This document shows, one piece after another, positions 25,709-39,094 of a DNA stretch of 64,000 nucleotides. Every line of letters starts with the position of its first letter. Positions within the stretch are counted from its first letter, which is position 1. The position numbers were made by a program, and so were the translations under genes. The notes below the pieces were generated by a model, which was given only the letters and a program-made list of their open reading frames with translations, searched no databases and had not been told where the DNA came from. The DNA comes from Patescibacteria group bacterium (GTDB lineage Bacteria; Patescibacteriota; Microgenomatia; UBA1400; UBA1449), in NCBI GenBank assembly GCA_050942955.1, contig JBMNOG010000004.1:4431-68430 (forward strand), read 5' to 3'.

Positions 25709-26240
25709 ACGTATATTCTTTTATATATTGTCGCATTTTCTTTAAAATCCGGTGAACTCTGACTCTAACAGCTCCTTCTTCCTTATTAACAACTTGGGCA
25801 ATCTCATTGAAAGATAACTCTTCAAAATATCGTAAAACAATTAACAGTTTTTCAAACTCCTTCAAAAACCCCATGGTTTTATACACTACTGCTTTTTGTT
25901 CCTTAGAAAGAAGGGTTTCCTGGATATCATCATCTGAGGGAATGGTTTCGGCCGTATCTAGCGCTAAGTTTTTCTTCTTACGCTTAAAATCGATAACAGC
26001 GTTTCTGGCAACAGCGAAGATAAAAGCCTGGAGCGTTCCCTTCTGAACATCAAAAGAAGATAAGGATTTCCAGGTCTTTAAAAATGTATTCTGCGTTAGA
26101 TCAGAGGCAGTTTCCGGATCATACACCATATAGTAGATAAACCGGTAAATCCGCTTGTAGAAGGTCTCGTAAATCTGTCCAAACGCCTGTTTGTCTCCAT
26201 GCTTAGCCAAGATGACCAAAGCGTCTAGTTCTTCTGACAT
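25698..26240 (-). CDS. ECF-type RNA polymerase sigma factor (sigma-70 regions 2 and 4)
   Basis: Region 2 FYKRIYRFIYYMVYDPETASDLTQNTFLKTWKSL. Region 4 LIVLRYFEELSFNEIAQVVNKEEGAVRVRVHRILKKMR. Confidence 0.85.
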   Translation of the reverse strand: MSEELDALVILAKHGDKQAFGQIYETFYKRIYRFIYYMVYDPETASDLTQNTFLKTWKSLSSFDVQKGTLQAFIFAVARNAVIDFKRKKKNLALDTAETIPSDDDIQETLLSKEQKAVVYKTMGFLKEFEKLLIVLRYFEELSFNEIAQVVNKEEGAVRVRVHRILKKMRQYIKEYTYEN

Positions 26241-26336
26241 AGCGGCATTATACCTTACTAACTATGTAATACGTGCAAGTCCCGGTTTTGTAACATTATT
26301 GCTTGGTCTTCGTTATATGTAGTGAAAGGAGATATT

Positions 26337-27017
26337 ATGAAAAATCTTACTATCACGTTTCTCACGTTTTTGTTTGTTGTTATCCTTGGTACCCAAATTG
26401 CGCTTGCCAAAGAGGGTTCTGGAGGAAAAGATAAAAAACCTGACCTTAAAGCTAAAATTACTACTCAGCTTGAACATGTCAGTCAATTTCTGAAAGCAAA
26501 GGTTAACAATGAAACCTTTGACATTCAGGGTGAGATAGAGTCTGCATCTGAGACAAGTTTTATTGTTGGCGGCCAGACTATTATCGTTGATCCTACCATG
26601 GTTGCCAAATTTACCCAAAAAGGCATTCTGGAAGAGGGGCAAAGAGTAAAAGTCAGAGGGATTATTACAGAAGATGGATACTTAGCTCAAGATATTAATG
26701 TTATCGGCACCGGACAGGGCAGGTATCAATTTAAGTTTGAAAACGGCGTTGTCGTCACCCCTACTCCGGATGAGAATGCCGATGATGATACACAGGATGC
26801 TACCCCAAGTGCATCACCCAGCCCTACCCCTCAAGGCAGCCTTAATTCGGGTACAGATGGTCTTATCGGAAGCCTGAACTCCGACACTGAAACTACTACC
26901 GGTAGCCTTGATTCGTCTACAGAAAGAGTAACAACCAGAATTAGAATCTCAGGAACTCTAGAAAGGGTTAGGGCTTTTATCGATAATTTATTTTCGTACT
27001 TTAGTCTTAGCTTTTAA
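26337..27017 (+). CDS. secreted protein with Ser/Thr/Asp-rich C-terminal region, hypothetical
   Basis: AAGGAG SD. Signal peptide MKNLTITFLTFLFVVILGTQIALA. Confidence 0.5.
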   Translation: MKNLTITFLTFLFVVILGTQIALAKEGSGGKDKKPDLKAKITTQLEHVSQFLKAKVNNETFDIQGEIESASETSFIVGGQTIIVDPTMVAKFTQKGILEEGQRVKVRGIITEDGYLAQDINVIGTGQGRYQFKFENGVVVTPTPDENADDDTQDATPSASPSPTPQGSLNSGTDGLIGSLNSDTETTTGSLDSSTERVTTRIRISGTLERVRAFIDNLFSYFSLSF

Positions 27018-27040
27018 TTCGATTTCTTTATAGGGCAGGA

Positions 27041-27070
27041 ATTAGCGCCCCACTAGGGGCGCTAATAGAT
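27041..27070 (+). terminator. hairpin terminator (perfect 10-bp GC-rich stem)
   Basis: ttagcgcccc-acta-ggggcgctaa followed by tagattttgac. Confidence 0.55.
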
Positions 27071-27392
27071 TTTGACTTTAGGTAGAATACCTGTTTTGAG
27101 CCTTTTCTAATAGTTGAAACGTTAAATAAAATTAAAAAAGAGATAACAAAAATAACTAAAACTAGCATTAATACAACAGTTTTGTTTTTACTCTTTTGCC
27201 TTTTTGCTATCATTCTCTACATAGTATAACTTTGAGGATAGACTTACCATGTAGCGGTAAAAGATAGGAAAGCAATTGTTATTGTCCTGGTATTTTGGAT
27301 CTTGCTATTAGTTAAAAAATAGCTACAGCAAATAAATTTTGACAGTTTATTCAGCTTAACAAAAATAACAGCTATCCTTTACAATAAGCAGT

Positions 27393-28310
27393 ATGAGAGT
27401 TGTCCACTTAAATGTAACCAGTCTCTTCTCTTCACTCCTACAGGGTGAGAAATACCCTCTCTCTCTTGAGAAGACCAATACCATAGCTAATCCCCATACT
27501 ATTGAGGCAGTAACGCTAACTCCAAGATCAAAAGTAAACGATGATAATCTTCAAAACTTGCCGTCTCTCAAACTTATTGTCACCAGAAGTGTCGGAGTTG
27601 ATCACATAGATAAAAATGCGTGTAAAAAGCGTAACATTGCGGTGTATCACATAGAAGACTACGGCGCCTTCAATATTGCTGAACATACCCTAGCGCTTCT
27701 CCTATCCGGAACCAGAAACATTGTTAGATCACAGAGAAACATTAACGCTGGAAAGTTCGAGCACGAGAATTTAGCTGGATTTGCTTTAAGGAACAAAACA
27801 GTAGGCATTATTGGTACAGGTAAAATTGGGCTTGAATTCATTAAGCTCCTTAAACCGTTTGACGTAAACGTTATTGCCTATGATATTTTTGAAAATTATG
27901 AAGCCCAAAAGCGTCTGGGTTTTACCTATACCACATTTGAATCGCTACTTAAGGAAAGTGATGTTATCAGTCTGCACGCACCCCTAACCCCAAAAACCCG
28001 CCACATGGTAAATCAAAAGGCTATCCAGCTCATGAAGGAAGATGTCATCCTCGTCAATACCGCCAGGGGTGATTTAATAAACACTCAAGACCTTGTGAAA
28101 AATATTGTAAAGTTTAGATTTGTTGGACTTGACGTTTTAGAAGACGAAGCCAGCTTTAGCAAAAGCCATCCGCTATTAGCTTTTCATAACGTACTCATCA
28201 CCCCTCATATGGCTTATCTTTCTGAGTACTCCCTGAAAAAGATTTGTGAGGAAACAGAGAAGTGTATCACCAGCTTCATGAATAACAACTCCAGTGGACG
28301 AATCGTTTAG
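27393..28310 (+). CDS. D-isomer-specific 2-hydroxyacid dehydrogenase family protein
   Basis: NAD-binding GIIGTGKIGLEF and the catalytic-domain pattern. 305 aa. Confidence 0.8.
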   Translation: MRVVHLNVTSLFSSLLQGEKYPLSLEKTNTIANPHTIEAVTLTPRSKVNDDNLQNLPSLKLIVTRSVGVDHIDKNACKKRNIAVYHIEDYGAFNIAEHTLALLLSGTRNIVRSQRNINAGKFEHENLAGFALRNKTVGIIGTGKIGLEFIKLLKPFDVNVIAYDIFENYEAQKRLGFTYTTFESLLKESDVISLHAPLTPKTRHMVNQKAIQLMKEDVILVNTARGDLINTQDLVKNIVKFRFVGLDVLEDEASFSKSHPLLAFHNVLITPHMAYLSEYSLKKICEETEKCITSFMNNNSSGRIV

Positions 28311-28380
28311 TTTCTGATTACTAAGTTCTTACCCCTTCATTACTCCATTTTCACGCCCTCACTTTAGCTTGAGTTGACTA

Positions 28381-29469
28381 TTGGTGATTATGAAGGCTAA
28401 CATACTTTCAAACCTCAAGAAAATTGCTATTCTGCGAGCTAATGCCCTCGGAGATTTTATTTTCGCCCTTCCGGCACTAAAAGCACTTAGAGAGACGTAC
28501 CCTAAAGCTGAACTTGTATATCTGGGTAAACCCTGGCACGAAACATTCCTCAAAGACAGAAAAGAGATTGTAGATAGAGTTGTCACTATTCCAGTAAGTT
28601 ATGGAATAAGAGAGGAAAACGGGAAAAGGGAAAATACTAAGGAACTGGAATCATTTTTCTGTGGAATGCAGAAAAAGAAATTTGACATTGCCATCCAGCT
28701 TCATGGAGGCGGCAGAAATTCAAACCCATTTGTCTCTAAACTAGGCGCACAGATAACAATTGGTTCTCAAACTTTTGATGCTTTAGGTTTAGACACAACC
28801 ATTCCATATATTTATTACCAAAACGAGTATTTACGATGTCTGGAGATCGTGGCCTTAGTTGGTGCAAAAACAAAAGAGATCGTTCCTCATCTCAACGTTA
28901 GACCTAAAGATGTAAATGAGGCTAGGGAAGTTATCGGAGGTATGTCTAAACCCCTAGTTATCCTACACCCTGGGGTAAACGACCTAAGAAGACAGTGGCC
29001 TGAAGAACGTTTTGCACAAGTCGGAGATTCACTTGCAAAAAAGGGTTTAAGTATTGCTCTTACCGGCACTAAAAATGAAGAAAAGCTGGTAAGCAACGTG
29101 ATAAGGAAAATGCAGATAAAGCCTCTAAATCTCTGCAGCAAACTGACAATCAATGGATTGACTGGTTTGTTAAAAATTGCAAAACTTATTATCAGCAATG
29201 ACACAGGACCACTTCATCTTGGAGCAGCCATAGGTACAAAAACAGTGGGAATCTACTGGTGCGGTAACCGCATCAACGGCGGACCGATAACAATTGCCAC
29301 AAATACTCCCTTAATTTCCTGGTTAACTCGCTGCCCCTTATGTGGAACAGACATGACAAAGTTAATAGTTAAGAAAAGTCATGAATGCAGCCACAACGTC
29401 TCGTTTGTTAAAGATGTATCTGTCAAAACTGTATATGAAGCGGCTAACTACCTTCTAGCTGAAGAATAA
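28381..29469 (+). CDS. glycosyltransferase family 9 (heptosyltransferase-like) with a C-terminal Cys/His cluster
   Basis: N-terminal ILRANALGDFIFALPALKAL is the GT9 signature. C-terminal CPLCGTDMTKLIVKKSHECSH. Confidence 0.75.
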   Translation: MVIMKANILSNLKKIAILRANALGDFIFALPALKALRETYPKAELVYLGKPWHETFLKDRKEIVDRVVTIPVSYGIREENGKRENTKELESFFCGMQKKKFDIAIQLHGGGRNSNPFVSKLGAQITIGSQTFDALGLDTTIPYIYYQNEYLRCLEIVALVGAKTKEIVPHLNVRPKDVNEAREVIGGMSKPLVILHPGVNDLRRQWPEERFAQVGDSLAKKGLSIALTGTKNEEKLVSNVIRKMQIKPLNLCSKLTINGLTGLLKIAKLIISNDTGPLHLGAAIGTKTVGIYWCGNRINGGPITIATNTPLISWLTRCPLCGTDMTKLIVKKSHECSHNVSFVKDVSVKTVYEAANYLLAEE

Positions 29470-29596
29470 AACTATTGCTTGTAGTTTGAGACACCGAAAG
29501 ATAAGTTTTGGTTGATAAAACAATTAGTTGGTTCCTCTTCCTCATCTCTTACACACCTTTTATATATCCCTCATTTTCCAACTTTACTCTTTGGCT

Positions 29597-30634
29597 ATGA
29601 AGATAACCAGAGTTTTTAGCAGAGATCAAAAACTTAAAATCGGAGTATTTAGAGCGTTGTACTTAGGCGACCTACTCTGTAGTGTGCCAGCATTTAAGGC
29701 TATAAGAAAAACCTTTCCTGAGGCCAATATCACTTTAATATCTCTACCTTGGGCAGCTGAGTTTGCAAAGCGTTTTGCCTATATTTTCAACAGTTTTATC
29801 AAGTTTCCCGGCCTTCCTGGACTACCTGAGCAGCCAGTTAATCCCAAAAAATCTCTGGAATTTTTTCAGCATTTGCAAAATGAACAGTATGACCTTCTTT
29901 TGCAAATGCAAGGTAACGGTAGTATTGTCAACACTGTTTTACCTCTAGCTGACGCTACTGCCATGGCCGGTTTTTACATGGCGAGAGGTTTTCGGCCCAA
30001 CCGCTACTTTTTCATGAGGTATCCAAACAACCTTTCTGAAGTTGAGAGATACTTAAAACTTACTCACTACCTTGGAATGGATTGTGAAGATAAACAACTG
30101 GATTTTCCTCTCTATCAAAGTGATTATAGGGAATTTGGATTACTTGAGGCACAGCTTGGGTTATCAAAAGAAAGGTATGTCTGTATTCACCCTGGAGCGA
30201 GAGAGAAATTAAGACGCTGGTCCCCTCTTAATTTTATTACCGTCGCAGATGAGATAGCAAGCAAAGGTTACAAGATAGTTTTAACTGGAACTTCAAGTGA
30301 AAAAGGGTTAACAAAGGCCATTGCCCATTCCATGCGTTACCCAGCTCTGGATTTAGCAGGAAAAACTTCTCTTGGAGCTCTGGCTCTTACCATTAAGAAT
30401 TCTCAGTTAATGGTCTGCAATGATACCGGTGTTTCCCATCTTGCAGCTGCCCTATCTCACCCTACAGTTGTCATCTCTCTCTCTAAAGATAAGAAGCGCT
30501 GGAAACCAGCAAACAGTTCCCTGCACCAGTTTGTGCCTGGGGAGACAAACAACGCACTTGAAGAAGTACGCTTCCGGATTTTCAACTTTTTAAGTACTCA
30601 AAGCAGCTATCCTGCCCTCACGCTCTATTCATAA
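29597..30634 (+). CDS. glycosyltransferase family 9 (heptosyltransferase-like)
   Basis: KIGVFRALYLGDLLCSVPAFKAIRKTFPEANITLISLPWAAEF is the GT9 N-domain. Start chosen at MKITRVF (track ORF from 29528). Confidence 0.75.
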   Translation: MKITRVFSRDQKLKIGVFRALYLGDLLCSVPAFKAIRKTFPEANITLISLPWAAEFAKRFAYIFNSFIKFPGLPGLPEQPVNPKKSLEFFQHLQNEQYDLLLQMQGNGSIVNTVLPLADATAMAGFYMARGFRPNRYFFMRYPNNLSEVERYLKLTHYLGMDCEDKQLDFPLYQSDYREFGLLEAQLGLSKERYVCIHPGAREKLRRWSPLNFITVADEIASKGYKIVLTGTSSEKGLTKAIAHSMRYPALDLAGKTSLGALALTIKNSQLMVCNDTGVSHLAAALSHPTVVISLSKDKKRWKPANSSLHQFVPGETNNALEEVRFRIFNFLSTQSSYPALTLYS

Positions 30635-30653
30635 CCTAAAGGAAAGGGTGCGT

Positions 30654-31664
30654 ATGGTATCAGGAAATTTATCAAAACTCAGAATCTTTACCTGGCATAT
30701 CCATGGGAGCTACCTATACTACCTTTCACACTGTCCATGCAACTTTTATATTCCCAAAGACTCAAATAATAAAGATGGATATATCGGCAAAACAAGTAAT
30801 TTTCCCTGGAGAGAAAAAGTCCATGAAATTCTGAAAACTGAAGTGAAGACTCAGGATTTTGACATAATTCTTTTCCAGTCCAAAAAAAATTATTTGAAAG
30901 ATCAATACGATATTTTGTCTCCACACCAAAGAATGTTGCCAAAGATTTTCTTGGAACATGATCCGCCACAAAAACATCCGACTAACACTAAACATGTAGT
31001 TGACGATCCCAATGTTGTTATTGTTCATGTTACAGACTTTAACAATCTCATGTGGGACAACAACCTCTCGCCTACCGTAGTTATTAAGCACGGAGTAAAA
31101 ATTCCCACAAATGTCCGGTACAACGGTCATCTACAAAAGGGTGTCGTCGTTATTAATAATATTGTTAAAAGAGGCCGAAGATTAGGGCTAGACATTTTCG
31201 AGAAAGTCAGGAAGCAAATTCCTCTTGATATTGTCGGGATGAACTCAGAGTTAGTCGGGGGACTAGGCGAAGTTCCTTTTATAAAACTTCCTCAGTTTAT
31301 TTCCCATTATCGTTTCTTTTTTAACCCCATCAGATACACAAGTCTAGGCCTCTCTGTCCTTGAAGCTATGGCTGCTGGTATGCCGGTTGTTGGTCTAGCA
31401 ACCACAGAAGTACCTTTGGTTTTGGAAAACAACGTAACTGGTTTTACCCACACAAACACCGATTTCCTGATTGAAAAGATGTATCAACTCCTAAACAACC
31501 CTACATTGGCCAGGAAGCTATCAGGCAACGCCAAACGCTTTGCAAACACACACTACAACATAGTTAAGTTTACACAAAACTGGCTCAACTTGTTTACTTC
31601 CATTACAAAGAAAACAAGCCGAACAGTTAGGCCACTTTCAAACAGCTTAGCTGTGAGTGTATGA
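30654..31664 (+). CDS. glycosyltransferase, GT4-like (GT-B C-terminal domain)
   Basis: SLGLSVLEAMAAGMPVVGLATTEVPLVLENNVTGF is the GT4 motif. Confidence 0.6.
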   Translation: MVSGNLSKLRIFTWHIHGSYLYYLSHCPCNFYIPKDSNNKDGYIGKTSNFPWREKVHEILKTEVKTQDFDIILFQSKKNYLKDQYDILSPHQRMLPKIFLEHDPPQKHPTNTKHVVDDPNVVIVHVTDFNNLMWDNNLSPTVVIKHGVKIPTNVRYNGHLQKGVVVINNIVKRGRRLGLDIFEKVRKQIPLDIVGMNSELVGGLGEVPFIKLPQFISHYRFFFNPIRYTSLGLSVLEAMAAGMPVVGLATTEVPLVLENNVTGFTHTNTDFLIEKMYQLLNNPTLARKLSGNAKRFANTHYNIVKFTQNWLNLFTSITKKTSRTVRPLSNSLAVSV

Positions 31665-33580
31665 CTATGATGAACATTGCTTTTATCAGTGAACACGCCT
31701 CTCCCCTTGCTGCACTTGGCGGTGCCGATAGTGGCGGTCAAAACGTCTATGTCGCAAAGCTAGCATACCAGTTGGGGGAAATGGGCCACAAAGTTGATAT
31801 CTTTACCCGCTGGGACAATAAAGCTTTGCCCTTATCGGTAAACCTAACTCCGAATGTCAGGGTAATTCATGTCAAAGCCGGTCCGAAAACTTTCATACCT
31901 AAGGAAGAACTCTTGCCACACATGAACTCTTTTACTCAAAGCATGCTTTCTTTTCTTAAGTACAGTCAGACAACGTACGATTTTGTCCATGCCCACCACT
32001 GGATGTCTGCCCTAGTTGCTGCAGATATAAAACAAGAGCTGAAAATTCCGTTTGTAGTCACCTTCCATGCCCTGGAAAAAGTACGACTAAAATACCAAAA
32101 AGAGGTAGCTTCACTTCAAGCTAAACGAATTAATGTTGAAGAAGACGTGATCAAAAAGTGTAACTACGTAATTGCCGAATGCCCCCAGGATAGAGACGAT
32201 CTCATTACCCTTTACAATGCTGATCCAAGAAAAATTGTTACTATTCCTGCTGGGTTTGATCAGAAAGAGTTCTATCCGATTGACCGGATACTGGCTTGCA
32301 GCGTCCTCAAACTTGATCCCAGTATAAAGTATGTCCTGGCACTCAGTAGAATGGTACCCAGAAAAGGAATTGAGACTATTGTCCGCGGCTTTGCCCGATT
32401 TTTGAAAGATAATCAAAGCAGTATGAAACTGCTTATTGTTGGCGGTGAGTCTGATTTGCCTGACCCAGAGTACACTCCGGAAATCGCCAGGCTGACCGGT
32501 ATTGCCCGAGATGAAAACATTGAAGAGTCTGTAATCTTTACCGGCAGAAAAGACAGATCAGTATTAAAGTACTTTTACAGTGTAGCTGAGGTGTTTGCTT
32601 CCACTCCTTGGTATGAACCTTTTGGCATAACGCCACTTGAAGCGATGGCATGTGGCGTGCCAGTTATTGGTACAAGAGTTGGAGGCATCAAGTTTACTGT
32701 AAAAGATAATGAGACAGGGTACCTTATTGAACCTCAAAAACCCCAACAGTTTACTAAAGCCCTAGAAGCACTTGTATCAAACCCATATAAGCTCCGGATT
32801 TTTAAAGAAAACGGGGTAAAACACGTCAATGAGTACTTTACATGGGAAAAAGTAGCCAGACAAATGCAGGCGTTGTACCAAAAAGTACTTCCTCAGATGA
32901 CTGTGAGTGATACCTTTCTTCCCTTACCTGAAAAAGTAGTTGAGATAGCTTTCAGTGAATTCACCCAACTTTTAAGTAAACCGATGAGAAGTCTTAAAGA
33001 AAACATTCTTTCCGCAGCAAAGATAATTGAGGAAACATTTGAACACAACGGCAAGGTTATAGTTTGTGGTAACGGCGGCAGCGCAGCTGATGCCCAGCAC
33101 TTTGCAACAGAACTAGTAGGTAGGTTTCAAATTCCTCAAAGACCGGCTTTCCCCGTAATGGCGTTAACAGCCGATTCAACTTTTCTTACAGCCTGGTCAA
33201 ACGATGTTTCCTTTAGAGAGGTGTTCTCAAGACAAATTGAGGCCTTCGGGCAAGAAAGAGATACCGTTATTGGCATCAGTACTAGCGGCAATTCTGAAAA
33301 TGTTGTTAAGGCATTTGAAGTTGCTCACGATAAAGGTATGTTGGCTATTGGTATCTTAGGCAAAGATGGTGGTGAGGCTGCAGAAGAAGCAGATGTATCT
33401 GTGATTGTACCCTCGCAAAACCCTCAACGCATTCAGGAAACTCATCTACTCATATTGCATACGTTGGTAGAAATTGTTGAAAACTATCTACTCAGCAAAG
33501 AACTTCAACAACGTAGCAAGGGTATGGGTAGAAAAAAATCAACACAAAAAATAGTGAAAGGAGAAATATGGAAAATATAA
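31661..33580 (+). CDS. gmhA: fusion protein: N-terminal GT4 glycosyltransferase (sucrose-phosphate-synthase/MshA-like, GGQNVYV) + C-terminal sedoheptulose-7-phosphate isomerase GmhA (SIS domain)
   Basis: N-terminus ASPLAALGGADSGGQNVYVAKLA. C-terminal ~190 aa (KVIVCGNGGSAADAQHFATELVGRF...GISTSGNSENVVKAFEVAHDKGMLAIGILGKDGG...IQETHLLILH) aligns along its length with E. coli GmhA. Confidence 0.8.
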   Translation: MTMMNIAFISEHASPLAALGGADSGGQNVYVAKLAYQLGEMGHKVDIFTRWDNKALPLSVNLTPNVRVIHVKAGPKTFIPKEELLPHMNSFTQSMLSFLKYSQTTYDFVHAHHWMSALVAADIKQELKIPFVVTFHALEKVRLKYQKEVASLQAKRINVEEDVIKKCNYVIAECPQDRDDLITLYNADPRKIVTIPAGFDQKEFYPIDRILACSVLKLDPSIKYVLALSRMVPRKGIETIVRGFARFLKDNQSSMKLLIVGGESDLPDPEYTPEIARLTGIARDENIEESVIFTGRKDRSVLKYFYSVAEVFASTPWYEPFGITPLEAMACGVPVIGTRVGGIKFTVKDNETGYLIEPQKPQQFTKALEALVSNPYKLRIFKENGVKHVNEYFTWEKVARQMQALYQKVLPQMTVSDTFLPLPEKVVEIAFSEFTQLLSKPMRSLKENILSAAKIIEETFEHNGKVIVCGNGGSAADAQHFATELVGRFQIPQRPAFPVMALTADSTFLTAWSNDVSFREVFSRQIEAFGQERDTVIGISTSGNSENVVKAFEVAHDKGMLAIGILGKDGGEAAEEADVSVIVPSQNPQRIQETHLLILHTLVEIVENYLLSKELQQRSKGMGRKKSTQKIVKGEIWKI

Positions 33581-34293
33581 AGGGAAAAGTTGCGTTGGTT
33601 ACAGGCGGCAGCCAGGGGCTTGGCGCAGCTATTGTTGAAGCTTTAGCCAAACATGGAGTTACGACAATTATTGGAGACATTAAAGATCGGCAGGCAGAGA
33701 TAGTACGAAAACGTTTATCTAAAGAAGGCAGTAAGGTTTTTAACTATCATCTTGATGTTAGCAGTGAAATCAGCACTACCGAAGTTATCAATAAAATTCA
33801 GAAAGAGTTTGGGCGTTTGGATATCTTAGTAAATAACGCCGGCATTGATGTAACTAAACCTGTTGATGAACTCACTATTGAGCAGTGGGATCGGGTTCTG
33901 GGAGTAAATCTTAGAGGTCCGTTTATATTGTCAAAACTTGCTCTCGAAGCAATGAAGAAGCAAAAAGGCGGACATATTGTTAACATTACCTCAACAGCAG
34001 CTAAGCGCGCTTGGGCCAATGCCTCAGCTTACCACGCCAGCAAATGGGGACTTCTGGGTATGAGTCACTGCTTCTTCTGTGAAGCCAGAAAGTTCAATGT
34101 TAAAGTATCTGCTGTCGTATCCGGAGGCATGAGAACTCGATTTATTCTTGACCGTTTTCCTGAAGTAGACCCAAACACCTTACAAGACCCAATACATGTT
34201 GCTAAAACAGTATTATTTATTCTTAAACAAGCAGATGAAACTGTCATTCCTGAAGTTATGGTTTTGCCGCTTAACGAAACCTCTTGGCCTTGA
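33568..34293 (+). CDS. short-chain dehydrogenase/reductase (classical SDR)
   Basis: GKVALVTGGSQGLGAAI and catalytic YHASK. 241 aa. Confidence 0.85.
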   Translation: MENIKGKVALVTGGSQGLGAAIVEALAKHGVTTIIGDIKDRQAEIVRKRLSKEGSKVFNYHLDVSSEISTTEVINKIQKEFGRLDILVNNAGIDVTKPVDELTIEQWDRVLGVNLRGPFILSKLALEAMKKQKGGHIVNITSTAAKRAWANASAYHASKWGLLGMSHCFFCEARKFNVKVSAVVSGGMRTRFILDRFPEVDPNTLQDPIHVAKTVLFILKQADETVIPEVMVLPLNETSWP

Positions 34294-34310
34294 GCCGGAA
34301 AAGGTTGACT

Positions 34311-34901
34311 ATGAGAAAACTACCAAAAAAAGCCATATTTTTGGACAAGGATGGGACACTTATACCTAATATTCCCTATAATGTAGATCCTGAACGTATC
34401 GCTTTAAACCCTGAAGTAGGAAGATCATTAAAATCCCTTCAGGATGCAGGATTTCTCATAGTTGTAATCACAAACCAGTCAGGTATTGCGCGAGACTTTT
34501 ATTCTGAAAAAAATCTTATTCCTATAGAAAAAAAGCTAAAAAAACTACTGGTTGATTTTAACGTAAACCTTAGTGGTTTTTACTACTGTCCCCACCATCC
34601 ACTGGGGACTATCCCTTACAACATAGTGTGCGAGTGCCGCAAACCAAAACCGGGACTGCTTTTTAGGGCAGCACGCAATCTGTATATAGACCTATCCAGT
34701 TCCTGGATGATTGGTGATACGTGGAGCGATATCGGAGCAGGTTTTAATGCTGGTTGCTTCACAGTTTTATTATCACCTTACCCGAACACGATGACTCCTG
34801 AAAGCAAGTTCACTCCTGATTTTAAAGCTAAAAACTTTAGCGAAGCTGCCTCAATTATCTTAGAAACTCAGGAGATATTGGTAAATACCAGTAAACTATG
34901 A
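34311..34901 (+). CDS. gmhB: D-glycero-D-manno-heptose 1,7-bisphosphate 7-phosphatase (HAD family)
   Basis: AIFLDKDGTL...VVITNQSGIARDFYS...YYCPHHP...CECRKPKPGLL...IGD aligns with E. coli GmhB, including the Cx(D/E)CRKP motif. Confidence 0.8.
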   Translation: MRKLPKKAIFLDKDGTLIPNIPYNVDPERIALNPEVGRSLKSLQDAGFLIVVITNQSGIARDFYSEKNLIPIEKKLKKLLVDFNVNLSGFYYCPHHPLGTIPYNIVCECRKPKPGLLFRAARNLYIDLSSSWMIGDTWSDIGAGFNAGCFTVLLSPYPNTMTPESKFTPDFKAKNFSEAASIILETQEILVNTSKL

Positions 34902-36400
34902 AAGTTACTGATCAAAAAGCTCTGGATAGAATTAAAAAAGTTAATGTTGCCGTGTTGGGAGAGGCTATTTTGGATGTATTTATTGAAGGGGTTTCACAGC
35001 GGCTTTCCCGAGAAGCTCCTGTTCCTATTGTAGAAGTTGAATCAAAAAAAGCAGTCGCCGGTGGCGCTGCAAACACCGCCGTGAACACGACCACCCTAAG
35101 CGCCCACACCTATTTTCTGTCCGTTGTCGGAAAGGACAAAGAAGGTGAAAGCATAAAAACGATCTTGAGTAAGTATGGAGTGGAAACAAGATATGTAGTC
35201 GAAGACACAAGTAGGAAGACACTTTCAAAACAGAGAGTTGTTGCAAACAGTCAAGAACTGGTACGTTATGACCAAGGTACAACTTCTCCAATCTCTACCG
35301 AGGCAGAATTAGCATTAATTCAAAATCTAAAAAAAATTCTTTCGTTAATTGATGTTCTGATAGTCTCTGACTACGGTTATGGTGTTATCACCTCTCAGGT
35401 TTTAAAAACTTTATCAGAAATTAGAAATCAGAAAGAGATTATCATAGCAGTCGATTCTAAGAATCTGCGCAACTATAAGGAAGTCAAACCAACGCTGATT
35501 AAACCTAATTACATAGAGGTAGTAGAAAACTTGGGATTAACACCGGTTTCAGACAGTCTTGAAAGATTCAAGCAAGTTAGAGCCAGGAAAAAGAATCTCT
35601 TTGAATGCTGTGATCCTTCAATTATTGCGGTTACCTTGGATAAAGACGGAGCCTTGTTATTTAAAGACAGGCGTTACGTGTACCGAACCTATGCTCGGCC
35701 GGTTAAACAGTCAAACTCTATTGGAGCCGGCGATACGTTTATTAGCGCATTTACCCTTGGACTAGCTGCAGGCATGTCTTTATCAGCCTCAGCTGAGTTG
35801 GCAGCTGCGGCTAGCCAGGTTGTTGTTGATAAAACTGGCACAGCTCCATGCTACCTTAACGATTTAGAAATCCACAGTGAACACAATAAAAAAATCGTGT
35901 CAAATATAAACGAACTGCTGCTTATCTTGGACAAAACCAGAAAAGAAGGTAAGCAGATCGTGTTTACCAACGGCTGCTTTGACATTATTCACTCCGGACA
36001 TGTAACCTACTTAAGCCGGGCAAGAGAGTTAGGAGATGTGCTGGTTGTAGGTGTTAATAGTGACAAGAGTGTCCGCCATTTAAAGGGCTGGGAAAGACCA
36101 GTTAACCCTCTTCCCGATAGACTTAAAGTGTTAACAGGTCTAAGCAGTATAGACTACGTCATCCCGTTTGAAGAATATACCCCTATTAAACTAATTAAAA
36201 CCATAAAACCTCACATCTTTGTAAAAGGCGGAGACTATACTCTTAAAACTCTTCCGGAAGCCCCGTTTGTAAAGAAGTACGGTGGGAAAGTTAAAATCTT
36301 ACCGTATATTGAAGGCAAATCAACCACAGGTATTATTGAAAAAATTCAAAGAGTATTTCTTGATAGATTTTTTTTCACTCATAATATTAGACCGAGATAA
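34898..36400 (+). CDS. hldE: bifunctional D-beta-D-heptose 7-phosphate kinase / D-beta-D-heptose 1-phosphate adenylyltransferase
   Basis: N-terminal ribokinase-like domain (NVAVLGEAILDVFIEG..., GAGDTF). C-terminal cytidylyltransferase-like domain (IVFTNGCFDIIHSGHVTYLSRARELGDVLVVGVNSD). Confidence 0.9.
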   Translation: MKVTDQKALDRIKKVNVAVLGEAILDVFIEGVSQRLSREAPVPIVEVESKKAVAGGAANTAVNTTTLSAHTYFLSVVGKDKEGESIKTILSKYGVETRYVVEDTSRKTLSKQRVVANSQELVRYDQGTTSPISTEAELALIQNLKKILSLIDVLIVSDYGYGVITSQVLKTLSEIRNQKEIIIAVDSKNLRNYKEVKPTLIKPNYIEVVENLGLTPVSDSLERFKQVRARKKNLFECCDPSIIAVTLDKDGALLFKDRRYVYRTYARPVKQSNSIGAGDTFISAFTLGLAAGMSLSASAELAAAASQVVVDKTGTAPCYLNDLEIHSEHNKKIVSNINELLLILDKTRKEGKQIVFTNGCFDIIHSGHVTYLSRARELGDVLVVGVNSDKSVRHLKGWERPVNPLPDRLKVLTGLSSIDYVIPFEEYTPIKLIKTIKPHIFVKGGDYTLKTLPEAPFVKKYGGKVKILPYIEGKSTTGIIEKIQRVFLDRFFFTHNIRPR

Positions 36401-36409
36401 ATCAAGATT

Positions 36410-37534
36410 ATGAAAACTGGTTCCTGGGAAAATGTAAAAAAGGTACTCGCTGTCAGGCTTGATAGCATGGGAGACCTTCTGATGACTACACCCGCCCTAA
36501 GAGCTATAAAAGAGTCACTACACACAAAAAAACTTGTTTTGTTAACATCACGATCGGCCAGTTTAGCAACCCAATTTATTCCTGAGATTGATCAAACAAT
36601 CGTTTTTGATGCTCCCTGGGTGAAAACCCAAAGCAACAATATTGCTGCCAATTACATCTCAAACACCATTGCAAAACTGAAGAAGGAACAGTTTGATGCT
36701 GCTATTATTTTCACTGTCTGTAGCCAAAATCCGCTTCCTGCTGCTTTGCTATGCTATATGTCCCAAATACCACTTCGCTTAGCATACTGCCATGAAAACC
36801 CTTATGCCCTCCTAACTCACTGGCGGCCTGATCCTGAACCGCAGTTTTTTATCCGCCATGAAGTTGAAAGACAATTGAGTTTAGTAGCAAGTGTCGGATA
36901 CACAGCCTCGAATAAAACCCTATCGCTTACCCTAACTCAAACGGCACACAATTCAGTTATAGCAAAACTGAAAACACTAAAAGTTGATCTGCATATACCC
37001 TGGGTGGTCTTACATCCGGGTGTTTCTGAGGAAAGACGTCAGTACCCTTTGAAAAATTTTTGTAAGGCTCTTAAAGAGTTACAAAAACTCACTGATTTTC
37101 AGATTTTGGTTACCGGAAATGCGGCAGAAACTGAACTATCAAGGCAAGCAGCGCAGGAAATTGGCAGAAAAGCTGTTTCACTGGGAGGACAACTAACTTT
37201 AGAGGAGTTTGCTGCTCTCATTGCTCTTTCTCAGCTACTTATAACTAACAATACCGGCCCTGTTCATATAGCTGCCGCAGTTGGAACTCCTGTTGTAGAT
37301 CTATACGCTAATACTAACTCTCAGCACACTCCCTGGATGGTACCAAATCGGGTTCTAATATTTGATGTTCCCTGTAAAGCCTGTGAAAGGGGTATATGCT
37401 CTACCGGACCTCATCATATTCAAAAACACGTAAAACCTAGGGAGATCGTTAAAGCCTCCTTAGAACTTTTGTTACCAAAGTTTAAAACCGAGTTACTATA
37501 TGGCAAAAGTAGATGTTTTAATTCCAACACGTAA
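36410..37534 (+). CDS. glycosyltransferase family 9 (heptosyltransferase-like) with a C-terminal Cys cluster
   Basis: VLAVRLDSMGDLLMTTPALRAIKESL is the GT9 signature. C-terminal VPCKACERGICSTGPHH. Confidence 0.75.
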   Translation: MKTGSWENVKKVLAVRLDSMGDLLMTTPALRAIKESLHTKKLVLLTSRSASLATQFIPEIDQTIVFDAPWVKTQSNNIAANYISNTIAKLKKEQFDAAIIFTVCSQNPLPAALLCYMSQIPLRLAYCHENPYALLTHWRPDPEPQFFIRHEVERQLSLVASVGYTASNKTLSLTLTQTAHNSVIAKLKTLKVDLHIPWVVLHPGVSEERRQYPLKNFCKALKELQKLTDFQILVTGNAAETELSRQAAQEIGRKAVSLGGQLTLEEFAALIALSQLLITNNTGPVHIAAAVGTPVVDLYANTNSQHTPWMVPNRVLIFDVPCKACERGICSTGPHHIQKHVKPREIVKASLELLLPKFKTELLYGKSRCFNSNT

Positions 37535-38297
37535 CCGGAGTGAAGCTCTTACTGCCACTCTAACCAGTCTTTACTTTCAAAGCTTTTCAGATTTTCGGGT
37601 AATTATTTCTGATCAGTCAGATAACTTTATTGCTTCTGAAACCATAAAAACAATCTTTCGAATGTATAGTGCCAACAAAGAAAAAGTGACTTTATTGCAC
37701 AACCTTCCTCGTAAAGGCATTGCTCAACAACGCCAGTTTCTCCTAAATACAACAACGGCAGAGTACTGTCTTTTTCTTGATGATGATTTAATCCTTGAAC
37801 CCTACGTACTTACCAACATGTTTAAAGCCATAACAGAGGAAAAGTGTGGTTTTGTCGGTATGGCCCCAATTGGCTTGAGTTTTAAAAAGGATATCCGGCC
37901 CAAGGAGCAGTCAGTTGAGTTCTGGAGTTGCGGTGTTAAACCGGAAGCAGTAACTCCAGTAAGCAAAAAGTGGCAGCGGCACAAACTTCACAACGCCGCA
38001 AATATTTACCATGTTGCAAAAAAATTTAAACTAAAGCCAGAAAATCAGCAAAAATATAAAATTGCTTGGGTGGGCGGTTGTGTTTTGTATGACACCTCCA
38101 AGCTAAAGGTATGCGGAGGGTACTCATTCTGGGATAAAGTCCCAAAGGTAACTTGCGGCGAAGATGTTTTGGCTCAACTTAGAGTCATGAAGAAATTTGG
38201 AGGCTGTGGTCTTCTCCCTTCAGGCGCGTACCACCAAGAGCTACCGACAACTTTGATTAACAGAAAACATGATGCACCCTTCCTACTTGGTATTTAG
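37500..38297 (+). CDS. glycosyltransferase family 2
   Basis: VDVLIPTRNRSEALTATLTSLYFQSF...ISDQSDN and DDD are the GT2 DxD region. Confidence 0.75.
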   Translation: MAKVDVLIPTRNRSEALTATLTSLYFQSFSDFRVIISDQSDNFIASETIKTIFRMYSANKEKVTLLHNLPRKGIAQQRQFLLNTTTAEYCLFLDDDLILEPYVLTNMFKAITEEKCGFVGMAPIGLSFKKDIRPKEQSVEFWSCGVKPEAVTPVSKKWQRHKLHNAANIYHVAKKFKLKPENQQKYKIAWVGGCVLYDTSKLKVCGGYSFWDKVPKVTCGEDVLAQLRVMKKFGGCGLLPSGAYHQELPTTLINRKHDAPFLLGI

Positions 38298-38484
38298 CGG
38301 CCCTTTTATTACGAAAAGTTTACCCTATTCTAACAACATTATTATTAAGTTTTACTTATATGGATCAATATCATCGTACTTTTTGTAGTCATTTTAGGCT
38401 ATTGAAAGGGTACCTTGAACAGTTCTTTGACAGTAAAGGGGTGTTAATCGGGATCGGTCTAACACGTGCGGACAGGAGACAACT

Positions 38485-38823: not shown

Positions 38824-39030
38824 GGACACGTTATCACTACTCCAGGAAAGGTTGACTACAACCAAAGGCTGATCGACTCCGTCGCCACAACCAACAGACC
38901 CTACTGCAGCTGGCCTTTCCAGGTTTATCTGCCTGCTGTCGTTTCCGACACCCCTTAACTGTATGCCGAAGTGAGCAGGCAAACCTTGACTTCATGTCAT
39001 CATGCCTGCTCACTTCGGCCCGTCTCCCCA

Positions 39031-39066
39031 ATAACGAAAAAGGCCACCTTTTTCAAGATGGCCTTA
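39031..39066 (-). terminator. probable terminator for the minus-strand glycosidase gene
   Basis: On the minus strand: aaggcca-tcttgaaaaagg-tggcctt followed by tttcgttatt. Confidence 0.4.
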
Positions 39067-39094
39067 AAGAATTCCTGCCGAATTCTTTCAAGCG

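What the first reader, a model, noticed from the sequence alone, without database searches (positions are those of the whole stretch)
31661..33580. Unusual GT4-GmhA fusion protein (sugar-phosphate-type glycosyltransferase fused to sedoheptulose-7-phosphate isomerase)
A single 639-aa ORF joins an N-terminal GT4 domain with the GGQNVYV motif to a complete GmhA SIS domain. That motif is characteristic of the sucrose-phosphate synthase / MshA subgroup, which uses sugar-phosphate or inositol-phosphate acceptors.

The junction is clean: VLPQMTVSDTFLPLPEKVVEIAFSEF..., with no stop or frameshift. Fusing the first enzyme of heptose-nucleotide synthesis to a glycosyltransferase suggests metabolic channelling or a novel heptose-phosphate glycoside product. 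I am not aware of this architecture being described.
Basis: seen in the sequence. Interest (0 to 1): 0.6.

Follow-up and report, generated by a model that had tools for sequence, protein, structure and literature searches.

The report
Glycosyltransferase fused to heptose-phosphate isomerase
A real, widely conserved but unstudied two-in-one enzyme joins a sugar-phosphate glycosyltransferase to the first enzyme of heptose synthesis, inside a gene cluster that appears to build a heptose-containing sugar compound in many bacteria, including ones generally regarded as lacking LPS.

Summary
Window 31661..33580 (+) encodes one 639-aa protein with an intact SPS/MshA-type GT4 glycosyltransferase (residues ~5-411), a ~20-residue linker, and an intact GmhA domain (~432-612).

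It is not an assembly artefact. A second assembly is identical. More than 100 full-length homologues exist. 35 of 80 related loci from reference genomes, including isolates, carry the same in-frame fusion.

It is not rare. It occurs in Cyanobacteria, Chloroflexota, Actinomycetota, Bacteroidota, Myxococcota, one Nitrosospira and Patescibacteria. The window's host is a Patescibacteria (CPR) bacterium.

The gene sits in a conserved cytoplasmic cluster: GT9 - GT1-like - GT4(+/-GmhA) - SDR - GmhB-like phosphatase - HldE - GT9 - GT2. In 45 of 80 loci an equally similar GT4 lacks the GmhA domain, so the fusion is optional. In those loci the GmhB-like phosphatase stays beside the GT4 (27/29) while HldE mostly does not (5/29).

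Best reading: GT4 plus phosphatase act as a synthase/phosphatase pair, as SPS/SPP do, and prime a heptose-containing glycan. The fused GmhA supplies heptose-7-phosphate. Whether heptose-7-P is the GT4 acceptor is open (~35-40%). I found no description in the literature I could search. It is a new variant of a known kind, of moderate interest.

The parts
31661..33580 (+). GT4-GmhA fusion gene (639 aa), the finding itself
   Evidence: ORF. Domains. More than 100 full-length homologues. Identical in an independent Logan assembly.
31661..32275 (+). GT4 N-terminal (acceptor) Rossmann domain, residues 1-205. Carries GGQ25-27, K81, H136 and R156.
   Evidence: Pfam Glyco_transf_4 at residues 25-200. 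K81 and R156 align to the TeSPS acceptor-phosphate ligands R105 and R178. H136 aligns to the catalytic H158. These residues are 97-100% conserved in 78 fused and standalone orthologues.
32276..32893 (+). GT4 C-terminal (nucleotide-sugar donor) domain plus C-terminal helices, residues 206-411. Carries R230, R234, K235 and E319...E327 (EX7E).
   Evidence: Pfam Glycos_transf_1 at residues 223-387. These align to TeSPS R249, R253, E331 and E339 and are invariant.
32894..32953 (+). Interdomain linker, residues 412-431
   Evidence: Mean column identity is 0.40, but length is nearly fixed: 25 residues between query positions 408 and 432 in 21 of 31 sequences. pLDDT is below 50.
32954..33496 (+). GmhA (sedoheptulose-7-phosphate isomerase, SIS fold) domain, residues 432-612
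   Evidence: SIS_2 at 95 bits. Solved GmhAs match at about 1e-45. The Zn/catalytic residues H480, E484, Q592 and H600 correspond to N. gonorrhoeae GmhA H61, E65, Q175 and H183. The STSGNS loop is at 540-545. The four Zn ligands and S540, T541 and G543 are invariant; S542 and S545 are at least 90% conserved.
33497..33580 (+). Variable basic C-terminal tail (residues 613-639) and stop codon
   Evidence: Column identity 0.27 and gappy. pLDDT is below 50 from residue 619.
30648..31664 (+). GT1s: 338-aa GT-B-type glycosyltransferase. Its stop overlaps the fusion's start (ATGA).
   Evidence: Only the C-terminal half matches Pfam GT1 models. Present directly upstream of the GT4 in 24/25 fused and 27/29 standalone loci.
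29528..30634 (+). GT9b, a family-9 (heptosyltransferase-type) glycosyltransferase
   Evidence: Pfam Glyco_transf_9, 6.5e-31. Present in 22/25 and 25/29 loci.
28381..29469 (+). GT9a, a second family-9 glycosyltransferase. Less conserved across loci.
   Evidence: Pfam Glyco_transf_9, 3.7e-26. Orthologues appear in only a few loci.
33568..34293 (+). Classical short-chain dehydrogenase/reductase (241 aa)
   Evidence: adh_short, 3.8e-54. Only generic SDR relatives in the PDB. Present in 19/25 fused and 11/29 standalone loci.
34284..34901 (+). GmhB-like HAD-IIIA phosphatase, the proposed partner of the GT4
   Evidence: E. coli GmhB 2gmw at 1.5e-32. Retains DxD, the Zn loop CxH...CxC and RK. NCBIfam GmhB models score below cutoff, at 136/178 and 135/149.6. 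Kept beside the GT4 in 22/25 fused and 27/29 standalone loci.
34898..36400 (+). HldE: bifunctional heptose-7-P kinase / heptose-1-P adenylyltransferase
   Evidence: PRK11316 at 377 bits over the full length. rfaE_dom_II at 208.8 passes its cutoff of 181.5. Present in 19/25 fused but only 5/29 standalone loci.
36410..37534 (+). GT9c, a family-9 glycosyltransferase and a near-universal cluster member
   Evidence: Glyco_transf_9, 8.1e-29. Present in 24/25 and 26/29 loci.
37500..38297 (+). GT2 glycosyltransferase (265 aa), the last gene of the cluster
   Evidence: Glycos_transf_2, 7.2e-15. Present in 9/25 and 4/29 loci.
27393..28310 (+). D-2-hydroxyacid dehydrogenase at the head of the co-directional gene run. 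Membership of the cluster is doubtful.
   Evidence: 2-Hacid_dh Pfam assignment. No orthologue in other loci except a weak hit in L036.

Best explanation
The ORF encodes a genuine, anciently fused bifunctional enzyme at the centre of a cytoplasmic gene cluster that builds a heptose-containing glycan.

Shown by sequence:
- The C-terminal domain has every Zn/catalytic and phosphate-binding residue of GmhA. It should convert sedoheptulose-7-P to D-glycero-D-manno-heptose-7-P.
- The N-terminal domain is a complete retaining GT-B enzyme of the SPS/MshA branch. Both basic residues that hold the acceptor's phosphate in TeSPS are retained. It should therefore transfer a sugar from a nucleotide-sugar onto a small phosphorylated acceptor.

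Inferred from comparative genomics:
- The GT4 and the adjacent GmhB-like HAD phosphatase form a synthase/phosphatase pair, as SPS/SPP and MshA/MshA2 do. This pair makes the primer.
- The GT9, GT1-like and GT2 enzymes extend that primer. The GT9s use ADP-D,D-heptose made by GmhA, HldE and GmhB.
- The GmhA domain is a built-in supply module. It is retained, usually with HldE, in most loci from lineages that established knowledge says lack LPS heptose (Cyanobacteria, Chloroflexota, Actinomycetota, CPR). It is absent where a housekeeping pathway probably exists, as in most Proteobacteria.

Open: the identity of the acceptor. Heptose-7-P, the GmhA product, is the single most likely candidate at about 35-40%. 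The fusion does not require obligatory channelling.
For: - Domains and residues.
- The fusion is real and old. The sequence is identical in a second assembly. More than 100 full-length homologues exist. 35 of 80 genome loci are fused in frame. The two halves co-diverge (r = 0.82, 0 of 2000 permutations) and linker length is conserved.
- Conserved cluster: GT9b-GT1s-GT4-(SDR)-GmhB-(HldE)-GT9c across more than 12 phyla.
- Fused and standalone GT4s form one clade, distinct from TeSPS (34% identity) and MshA (31%), and the two states are interleaved.
- In standalone loci GmhB is kept in 27/29, HldE in 5/29 and GmhA in 1/29 (Fisher p = 4e-9).
- Acceptor-domain conservation (0.75) equals donor-domain conservation (0.74). 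That argues for one fixed small-molecule acceptor.
- No cluster protein has convincing TM segments, and there is no flippase or polyprenol-P transferase.
- The host is a CPR bacterium, and the window has no LPS genes.
Against: - No biochemical data exist for any family member.
- Donor sugar, acceptor and final product are all unknown.
- GT4, GmhA, GmhB and HldE domain I all score below the NCBIfam equivalog cutoffs. Altered specificities are therefore possible.
- The GmhB-like protein may simply be an ordinary GmhB that is kept for supply. I could not test whether genomes with standalone clusters have a second GmhB.
- The single-origin signal in the GmhA tree is weak (105/300 bootstraps).
- The cytoplasmic, soluble-acceptor inference rests on absence of membrane genes within +/-10 kb only.
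Confidence: 0.6

Rival explanations
1. Direct coupling. The GT4 domain glycosylates the product of its own GmhA domain (heptose-7-P) or its substrate (sedoheptulose-7-P, the C7 homologue of the SPS acceptor fructose-6-P). This gives a new glycosyl-heptose-7-phosphate. The GmhB-like enzyme, a heptose 7-phosphatase by ancestry, then dephosphorylates it. The result is a heptose analogue of sucrose or trehalose synthesis, and the GT9s then extend the product. This refines the best explanation rather than excluding it.
For: - Gene fusions usually join enzymes that share a metabolite.
- The acceptor-phosphate ligands K81 and R156, and the SPS-type Q27, are invariant.
- The phosphatase kept next to the GT4 even when HldE and GmhA are absent belongs to the GmhB family (27/29 versus 5/29).
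- None of 80 loci shows an adjacent but unfused GT4|GmhA arrangement.
- Linker length is conserved.
- Six fused loci have no HldE within 10 kb.
Against: - 45 of 80 orthologues lack the GmhA domain, and their acceptor-site residues do not change.
- AlphaFold gives no confident interdomain packing (pTM 0.64, linker pLDDT below 50).
- The presence of GmhA tracks the presence of HldE (19/25 versus 5/29), as a pure ADP-heptose supply module would.
- HAD phosphatases change specificity easily; HisB-N derives from GmhB (PMC9798254).
- Comparison of the C1-phosphate pocket was inconclusive.
Confidence: 0.35
2. An LPS- or lipid-linked core-like pathway. The cluster decorates a membrane glycolipid, and the GT4 acts on a lipid-linked or phospholipid head-group acceptor, as PimA or WaaG do.
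For: All characterised GT9 enzymes act on LPS cores (established knowledge). GT9b gives weak hits to RfaQ and heptosyltransferase III. Carbamoyltransferases occur in many loci, and the title and abstract of PMC8005017 (listed) concern LPS core biosynthesis in Pseudomonas.
Against: - The host is a CPR bacterium with a class F sortase, and the window has no Lpx, Kds or Waa genes.
- The cluster is common in Actinomycetota and Chloroflexota.
- No membrane protein, flippase or ligase is conserved in the cluster.
- The GT4 is closest to soluble sugar-phosphate enzymes.
Confidence: 0.07
3. The GmhA domain is not catalytic here. It serves instead as a sugar-phosphate-sensing or oligomerisation (tetramerisation) module that regulates the GT4, by analogy with the non-enzymatic GmhA paralogue DiaA.
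For: SIS domains often act as sensors (established knowledge). DiaA is among the PDB hits at 1.7e-35. The gmhA equivalog score falls slightly below its cutoff, at 193.8 versus 209.45.
Against: All four Zn/catalytic residues are invariant and the phosphate-binding loop is conserved across the family. The domain scores better against GmhA than against DiaA models. It co-occurs with HldE, which needs its product.
Confidence: 0.04
4. Artefact. Two adjacent genes were joined by a sequencing or assembly frameshift, or by loss of a stop codon, in this MAG only.
For: None was found. The source is a metagenome-derived CPR genome, where such errors do occur.
Against: The sequence is identical in a separate Logan assembly. 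There is no homopolymer at the junction. The fusion is in frame in 35 reference genomes, including isolates and a complete genome: Chlorogloeopsis fritschii PCC 6912, Leptolyngbya JSC-1, Pedobacter yulinensis, Dawidia cretensis, Nannocystis pusilla and Nitrosospira Nsp11. More than 100 full-length database homologues exist.
Confidence: 0.01

Closest known systems
Sucrose-phosphate synthase / sucrose-phosphate phosphatase (for example Thermosynechococcus TeSPS, PDB 6kih)
   Same: TeSPS is the best solved relative of the GT half (1.4e-67, 34% identity). It shares the GGQ motif, the catalytic His and Glu (H136, E319), the UDP-phosphate arginines (R230, R234) and both acceptor-phosphate ligands (K81, R156). 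The same logic of a GT4 followed by a dedicated phosphatase applies, and SPS too is often fused to a pathway partner (the SPP-like domain; my own knowledge).
   Different: The protein scores far below the SPS model cutoff (161.6 versus 576) and forms a separate clade. The partner phosphatase is a GmhB-type HAD-IIIA enzyme, whereas SPP is HAD-IIB by my recollection. The fused partner is an isomerase rather than a phosphatase. The context is heptose genes and GT9 enzymes, not sucrose metabolism.
MshA (D-inositol-3-phosphate N-acetylglucosaminyltransferase of mycothiol synthesis; C. glutamicum 3c48/3c4q)
   Same: It gives the highest NCBIfam hit (272 bits over the full length) and the second-best PDB hit (8e-61). 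It is also a GT4 acting on a phosphorylated small acceptor, followed by a phosphatase. JGI annotates many family members as MshA.
   Different: The score is below the equivalog cutoff (272 versus 462.5) and identity is 31%. The family has GGQ where MshA has GGM. Positions aligned to MshA Y110 and T134, which I recall as phosphate ligands but did not verify, are F/H113 and A137. No inositol-phosphate synthase or other mycothiol genes are present. The family is found in phyla that do not make mycothiol.
Canonical ADP-heptose pathway of LPS inner-core synthesis (GmhA, HldE, GmhB, HldD, plus the GT9 enzymes WaaC/F/Q)
   Same: The cluster has a GmhA domain with a complete active site, a bifunctional HldE, a GmhB homologue with its Zn loop, and three GT9 transferases.
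   Different: GmhA is fused to a GT4. No HldD epimerase is present. There is no Kdo or lipid A machinery, and the host is a CPR bacterium. All components fall below the equivalog cutoffs except HldE domain II. The cluster is also found in other phyla that, by general knowledge, lack LPS heptose or LPS altogether.
Other bifunctional fusions in nucleotide-sugar pathways (HldE kinase-adenylyltransferase, GlmU, SPS-SPP)
   Same: Two enzymes of one pathway lie on one polypeptide, and the fusion is optional across lineages: HldE versus HldA plus HldC (established knowledge).
   Different: Here the partners are not known to catalyse consecutive steps. No characterised example pairs a glycosyltransferase with GmhA.

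Membership tests
GT4 retaining GT-B glycosyltransferases, sugar-phosphate-acceptor branch (SPS/MshA-like) | Two Rossmann-like domains (Glyco_transf_4 plus Glycos_transf_1) | tested here: met
   Pfam hits at 93.9 and 123 bits, both above cutoff. The AlphaFold model is confident across both domains.
GT4 retaining GT-B glycosyltransferases, sugar-phosphate-acceptor branch (SPS/MshA-like) | Catalytic His and EX7E glutamates, plus Arg/Lys for the NDP phosphates | tested here: met
   H136, E319, E327, R230, R234 and K235 align to TeSPS H158, E331, E339, R249 and R253. They are 100% conserved in 78 orthologues.
GT4 retaining GT-B glycosyltransferases, sugar-phosphate-acceptor branch (SPS/MshA-like) | Basic residues that bind the acceptor's phosphate (TeSPS R105 and R178) | tested here: met
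   K81 and R156 are 97-100% conserved in both fused and standalone forms.
MshA (TIGR03449 equivalog) | Score above the curated cutoff of 462.5 bits | tested here: not met
   272.3 bits. The protein should not be called MshA.
Sucrose-phosphate synthase GT domain (TIGR02472) | Score above the curated cutoff of 576 bits | tested here: not met
   161.6 bits. It forms a separate clade from TeSPS.
GmhA, sedoheptulose-7-phosphate isomerase | SIS fold | tested here: met
   SIS_2 at 95 bits against a cutoff of 27. Fifteen solved GmhA/DiaA chains match at 1e-36 or better.
GmhA, sedoheptulose-7-phosphate isomerase | Zn/catalytic tetrad (N. gonorrhoeae H61, E65, Q175, H183) and the Ser/Thr phosphate loop | tested here: met
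   H480, E484, Q592 and H600 are invariant. In S540-T541-S542-G543-N544-S545, S540, T541 and G543 are invariant and S542 and S545 are at least 90% conserved in 31 homologues.
GmhA, sedoheptulose-7-phosphate isomerase | Score above the TIGR00441 equivalog cutoff of 209.45 bits | tested here: not met
   193.8 bits, a narrow miss. PRK13936 scores 198.7 against a cutoff of 276.
GmhA, sedoheptulose-7-phosphate isomerase | Homotetramer with active sites at subunit interfaces, and measurable isomerase activity | not testable with these tools
   Only a monomer model could be made.
SPS/SPP-type synthase-phosphatase pair | A dedicated phosphatase gene conserved next to the glycosyltransferase | tested here: met
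   The GmhB-like HAD is present in 22/25 fused and 27/29 standalone loci. HldE is present in 5/29 standalone loci.
SPS/SPP-type synthase-phosphatase pair | The phosphatase acts on the glycosyltransferase's product | not testable with these tools
   A residue comparison with E. coli and B. bronchiseptica GmhB was inconclusive.
ADP-heptose pathway / LPS inner-core system | HldE kinase and adenylyltransferase, GmhB, and the HldD epimerase | tested here: inconclusive
   HldE domain II passes (208.8 above 181.5). Domain I (239.8 below 345) and GmhB (135 below 149.6) fall below their cutoffs. No HldD homologue is in the cluster; the only SDR is a 241-aa classical type.
ADP-heptose pathway / LPS inner-core system | A Kdo/lipid A acceptor and its biosynthetic genes, in a diderm host | tested here: not met
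   No Lpx, Kds or WaaA genes are in the 64-kb window. The host is a Patescibacteria bacterium with a class F sortase. The rest of the genome was not available.

The most novel reading that the evidence does not exclude
The GT4 domain, and its standalone orthologues, use heptose-7-phosphate or sedoheptulose-7-phosphate as acceptor. The GmhB-like enzyme is the dedicated phosphatase for that product. The cluster, present in more than 12 bacterial phyla including CPR, Cyanobacteria, Chloroflexota, Actinomycetota and Burkholderia megaplasmids, would then make a previously unknown class of soluble heptose-based oligosaccharide. That would be a heptose counterpart of sucrose or trehalose, extended by non-LPS GT9 heptosyltransferases and often carbamoylated. 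Possible roles are stress protection or surface decoration.
Probability: 0.3. Interest if true: 0.75.

Novelty: new variant of a known kind. Interest (0 to 1): 0.5.

Why it matters
By established knowledge, every characterised GT9 heptosyltransferase and almost all ADP-heptose biology concern the LPS inner core of diderm bacteria. Here a complete ADP-heptose module and two or three GT9 enzymes sit in a compact, apparently cytoplasmic cluster. That cluster is shared by LPS-less lineages (by general knowledge; for example CPR and Actinomycetota), by Cyanobacteria and Chloroflexota, and also by Bacteroidota, Planctomycetota and Burkholderia megaplasmids. The GT4-GmhA fusion is the Rosetta-stone link between an SPS/MshA-like priming enzyme and heptose metabolism.

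If the product is identified, three things follow:
- a new family of heptose glycoconjugates would be defined;
- the first non-LPS role for GT9 enzymes would be established;
- an unrecognised source of ADP-heptose would come to light. ADP-heptose is a potent innate-immune agonist (abstracts listed), and the bacteria concerned are not expected to make it.

The family is directly testable, because cultured and genetically tractable carriers exist: Burkholderia multivorans and B. cenocepacia, Pedobacter, Nannocystis and Leptolyngbya.

Tried and rejected
1. **Assembly artefact.** Rejected.
2. **Literature.** Ten full-text searches found no description of the fusion or the cluster. The Rubrivivax psc1 cluster (PMC3684757) is a GDP-heptose capsule locus and is unrelated.
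3. **Junction-spanning search.** A 100-aa query against 1.84 billion representatives gave 135 hits. About 40 span the junction and many are fragments. This gives only a rough lower bound and is not very informative.
4. **GmhA-domain tree.** It was meant to prove a single origin. The fused domains cluster with the in-cluster free GmhA of L069, but bootstrap support is weak (105/300). Co-divergence of the two halves is the better evidence.
5. **C1-phosphate pocket of the GmhB-like protein.** E. coli K137 is Ile in 98% of cluster homologues, but genuine B. bronchiseptica GmhB has Ser at that position. The result is inconclusive. The key structural papers (PMC2844805, PMC2844806) are not held.
6. 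**MshA phosphate ligands.** My initial equation of MshA T134 with family T134 was a numbering coincidence. By alignment, MshA T134 corresponds to A137 and Y110 to position 113. The MshA residue roles come from memory and could not be verified, so only the TeSPS ligands are used.
7. **PIG-L deacetylase and UXS-like genes.** They lie next to the cluster in Caballeronia and Burkholderia and looked like an MshB analogy. They occur in only 2 and 5 of 80 loci, all Betaproteobacteria. They are lineage-specific accessories, not core genes.
8. **The 585-aa and 112-aa ORFs downstream (38485..40852).** They have no Pfam match, are not conserved in other loci, and look secreted rather than like a flippase or GT-C enzyme.
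9. **Interdomain packing.** AlphaFold gives no confident arrangement, so no active-site distance could be estimated.

Full report
**Observation.** The window has one uninterrupted ORF at 31661..33580 (+), 639 aa, starting MTMMNIAF. Pfam finds Glyco_transf_4 (residues 25-200), Glycos_transf_1 (223-387) and SIS_2 (432-567). NCBIfam's best models are MshA (272 bits, residues 6-410) and GmhA (194-199 bits, residues 427-613). The gene overlaps its upstream neighbour by 4 nt and its downstream neighbour by 13 nt.

**Not an artefact.** A Logan assembly of run SRR31066179 reproduces window 21661..43580 without a single mismatch, and there is no homopolymer at the junction. More decisively, the 120 best database hits are all 620-704-aa proteins at about 50% identity that carry both GT and SIS Pfam domains. 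A scan of one genome per species returned 80 related loci. In 35 of them GT4 and GmhA are in one frame without a stop. These include isolates and a complete genome: Chlorogloeopsis fritschii PCC 6912, Leptolyngbya sp. JSC-1, Pedobacter yulinensis, Dawidia cretensis, Nannocystis pusilla and Nitrosospira sp. Nsp11.

**Both halves look catalytically competent.** From the HMMER alignment to Thermosynechococcus SPS (6kih) and the residue roles reported for it (PMC7264703):

| TeSPS residue | Role | Residue here |
|---|---|---|
| R105 / R178 | acceptor-phosphate ligands | K81 / R156 |
| H158 | catalytic | H136 |
| R249 / R253 | UDP-phosphate ligands | R230 / R234 |
| E331 / E339 | catalytic | E319 / E327 |
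| Q51 | contacts fructose | Q27 |

All are 97-100% conserved in 78 orthologous GT4 domains. For the C-terminal half, the Zn/catalytic residues of N. gonorrhoeae GmhA (H61, E65, Q175, H183; PMC5387315) correspond to H480, E484, Q592 and H600. The phosphate loop STSGNS is at 540-545. The four Zn ligands and S540, T541 and G543 are invariant in 31 homologues, and S542 and S545 are at least 90% conserved.

Neither half reaches the NCBIfam equivalog cutoffs: MshA 272/462.5, SPS 162/576, GmhA 194/209. The GT4 is therefore neither MshA nor SPS, but a separate clade about equally distant from both (34% and 31% identity).

**Genomic context.** The gene lies in a co-directional run:
- 2-hydroxyacid dehydrogenase, 27393..28310
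- GT9a, 28381..29469
- GT9b, 29528..30634
- a 338-aa GT1-like protein (GT1s), 30648..31664
- GT4-GmhA, 31661..33580
- SDR, 33568..34293
- GmhB-like HAD, 34284..34901
- HldE, 34898..36400
- GT9c, 36410..37534
- GT2, 37500..38297

No cluster protein has convincing transmembrane segments, and there is no flippase, ligase or polyprenol-phosphate transferase. The window's UvrB is 100% identical to one from a 'Patescibacteria group bacterium' MAG, and the next named relatives are Beckwithbacteria and Woesebacteria. The window also has a class F sortase and no LPS genes. The host is therefore a CPR bacterium. That these generally lack LPS is background knowledge, not something tested here.

**Comparative genomics.** tblastn of the window's cluster proteins against the 80 loci shows a conserved core: GT9b - GT1s - GT4 - (SDR) - GmhB-like - (HldE) - GT9c - (GT2). 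It is found in Cyanobacteria, Chloroflexota, Actinomycetota, Bacteroidota, Beta-, Gamma- and Deltaproteobacteria, Myxococcota, Planctomycetota, Verrucomicrobiota, Gemmatimonadota, Acidobacteriota, Methylomirabilota and Patescibacteria. De novo clustering of all ORFs added a NodU-type carbamoyltransferase (36 loci), a second GT2 (31), a PucR-type regulator (12) and an MFS transporter (8).

In 45 of 80 loci the GT4, at the same ~50% identity, has no GmhA domain. In none of the 80 is GmhA an adjacent separate gene.

| Group | Fused loci |
|---|---|
| Cyanobacteria | 12 of 12 |
| Actinomycetota | 5 of 5 |
| Chloroflexota | 7 of 9 |
| Bacteroidota | 7 of 26 |
| Betaproteobacteria | 1 of 12 |

In a neighbour-joining tree, fused and standalone GT4s form one tight clade and are interleaved within Bacteroidota and within Chloroflexota. 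So the GmhA domain has been lost, or gained, repeatedly. Among fused proteins the two halves co-diverge (Pearson 0.82; 0 of 2000 permutations reach it). The linker varies in sequence but has almost constant length. This indicates long co-inheritance as one gene. A GmhA-domain tree is compatible with a single origin but weakly supported.

**Which heptose genes stay with the GT4?** The counts below are for loci with at least 6 kb of flank on both sides.

| Gene | Fused (n = 25) | Standalone (n = 29) |
|---|---|---|
| HldE | 19 | 5 |
| GmhA | 24 | 1 |
| GmhB-like | 22 | 27 |
| GT9c | 24 | 26 |
| GT1s | 24 | 27 |

For GmhB versus HldE retention in standalone loci, Fisher p = 4e-9. So GmhA and HldE behave as a removable ADP-heptose supply module. 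It is missing in most loci from lineages that, by general knowledge, have a housekeeping LPS-heptose pathway. The GmhB-like phosphatase behaves as part of the invariant core beside the GT4. It is a close homologue of E. coli GmhB (1.5e-32) and keeps the DxD motif, the Zn loop and R110/K111. An attempt to see whether its C1-phosphate pocket differs from true GmhB was inconclusive.

**Structure.** AlphaFold2 with the 31-sequence alignment gives confident domains: 415 of 639 residues have pLDDT of 90 or more. The linker is disordered (412-434, pLDDT below 50) and pTM is 0.64. The monomer model therefore does not support a fixed intramolecular tunnel. Oligomeric arrangements could not be modelled; solved GmhAs are tetramers (PMC5387315).

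**Mechanism proposed.**
- *Shown by sequence.* The protein combines a competent S7P isomerase with a competent retaining glycosyltransferase whose acceptor carries a phosphate.
- *Inferred.* The GT4 and the GmhB-like HAD act as a synthase/phosphatase pair, in the manner of SPS/SPP or MshA/MshA2, and make the primer of a cytoplasmically assembled glycan. GT9b, GT9c and GT9a add heptose from ADP-D,D-heptose produced by GmhA, HldE and GmhB; no HldD epimerase is present. GT1s, the GT2s and in many genomes a carbamoyltransferase complete the product.
- *Acceptor conservation.* The acceptor domain is as conserved as the donor domain (0.75 versus 0.74 mean column identity). This argues for one fixed small-molecule acceptor across all phyla.
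- *Candidate acceptor.* Heptose-7-P, or S7P, is the most attractive candidate for three reasons. The GT4 is fused to the enzyme that interconverts these two sugars. The partner phosphatase descends from a heptose 7-phosphatase. The family keeps the SPS-type Gln that contacts a ketose-phosphate acceptor. I put this at roughly 35-40%.
- *Alternative.* GmhA may merely supply the ADP-heptose branch while the acceptor is some other phosphorylated metabolite. This is about equally likely, and the two cannot be separated computationally.

**Known or new?** Automated pipelines already hold hundreds of these proteins under generic names, so the architecture is not new to databases. Ten full-text searches of PMC and bioRxiv found no paper that describes the fusion, the GT4 clade or the cluster. 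Subscription-only literature could not be searched. The standalone version lies on megaplasmids of Burkholderia multivorans and B. cenocepacia, Caballeronia, Paraburkholderia and Cupriavidus, annotated only as 'glycosyltransferase family 1', 'HAD family hydrolase', 'glycosyltransferase family 9' and 'carbamoyltransferase'. That offers tractable systems.

I classify the finding as a new (uncharacterised) variant of known kinds: a bifunctional pathway fusion, an SPS/SPP-like priming pair, and ADP-heptose-dependent GT9 glycosylation.

**Verdict.**
- The claim of rarity is wrong.
- The claim of an undescribed, functionally suggestive architecture stands.
- Interest is moderate (0.5). It would rise to about 0.75 if the heptose-phosphate acceptor and a non-LPS heptose glycan were demonstrated.

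Noticed in passing
window 8166..9281 (+) and 9373..10662 (+): An adjacent pair: a GT4-like glycosyltransferase (weak hits to glgA_Coryne and BshA) and a GDE_C / mannosylglycerate-hydrolase-like glycoside hydrolase. It may be a second small-glycoside synthesis and hydrolysis module in this CPR genome.
   Followed up: no
window 16345..17529 (-): A class F sortase (123.5 bits) in a Patescibacteria genome, flanked by tRNA-Glu and RuvC. It indicates Gram-positive-type surface-protein anchoring.
   Followed up: no
window 18498..19085 (+) and 19082..19852 (+): An AbiEii-family nucleotidyltransferase toxin (type IV toxin-antitoxin / abortive infection). It is preceded by an overlapping 195-aa ORF without a Pfam hit, which is likely the AbiEi antitoxin.
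   Followed up: no
window 39095..40852 (-) and 38485..38823 (+): A 585-aa protein with N-terminal hydrophobic segments, a long Pro/Thr-rich linker and a C-terminal domain with no Pfam match. Next to it is a 112-aa signal-peptide-like ORF. Neither is conserved next to the cluster in other genomes.
   Followed up: partly
window 22513..24768 (+); 41011..42495 (-); 4720..5667 (+); 48235..49602 (+); 1427..2311 (+): For a CPR genome, an unusually rich sugar-metabolism complement lies near the cluster: a GH52 glycosidase, G6PD, a 6-phosphogluconate-dehydrogenase-like protein, phosphomannomutase/phosphoglucomutase and a sugar-1-P nucleotidyltransferase. The pentose-phosphate enzymes could feed sedoheptulose-7-P to GmhA.
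   Followed up: no
L083 (Caballeronia zhejiangensis plasmid p2) 9208..19826; L082 (B. multivorans plasmid) 11004..23224: Burkholderiaceae megaplasmid versions of the cluster add a PIG-L family deacetylase, an extra GT and a UDP-glucuronate-decarboxylase-like gene. These occur only in Betaproteobacteria (2 and 5 of 80 loci). In B. multivorans the locus is flanked by stress-type genes (BON, DUF892, DUF4142, CBS, PRC-barrel) and two sigma-54 regulators, which hints at stress-regulated expression.
   Followed up: partly
loci L002-L081 (for example L006 17154..18935, L006 15052..16095): A NodU/CmcH-type carbamoyltransferase and a second ~330-aa GT2 are much commoner in clusters with standalone GT4 (21/29 and 18/29) than in fused ones (6/25 and 6/25). 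This suggests two product subtypes.
   Followed up: partly
L003 7671..8945 and 11 other, mostly cyanobacterial, loci: A PucR/CdaR-type regulator (GGDEF_2 plus HTH_30) lies next to the cluster. It is a possible sugar-acid-responsive regulator of the operon.
   Followed up: no
L036 10001..11210 (Elainella saxicola); L048 11248..11498 (Chlorogloeopsis fritschii PCC 6912): In L036 the GT4 part matches as two overlapping pieces, so it may be a frameshift or a pseudogene. In L048 the in-frame linker is about 83 residues longer than usual.
   Followed up: no
window 17532..18011, 44715..46287, 54672..57734, 59636..61774, 62001..62666: The window is rich in DNA-repair and recombination genes: RuvC, RuvA, RuvB, UvrA, UvrB and LexA.
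   Followed up: no
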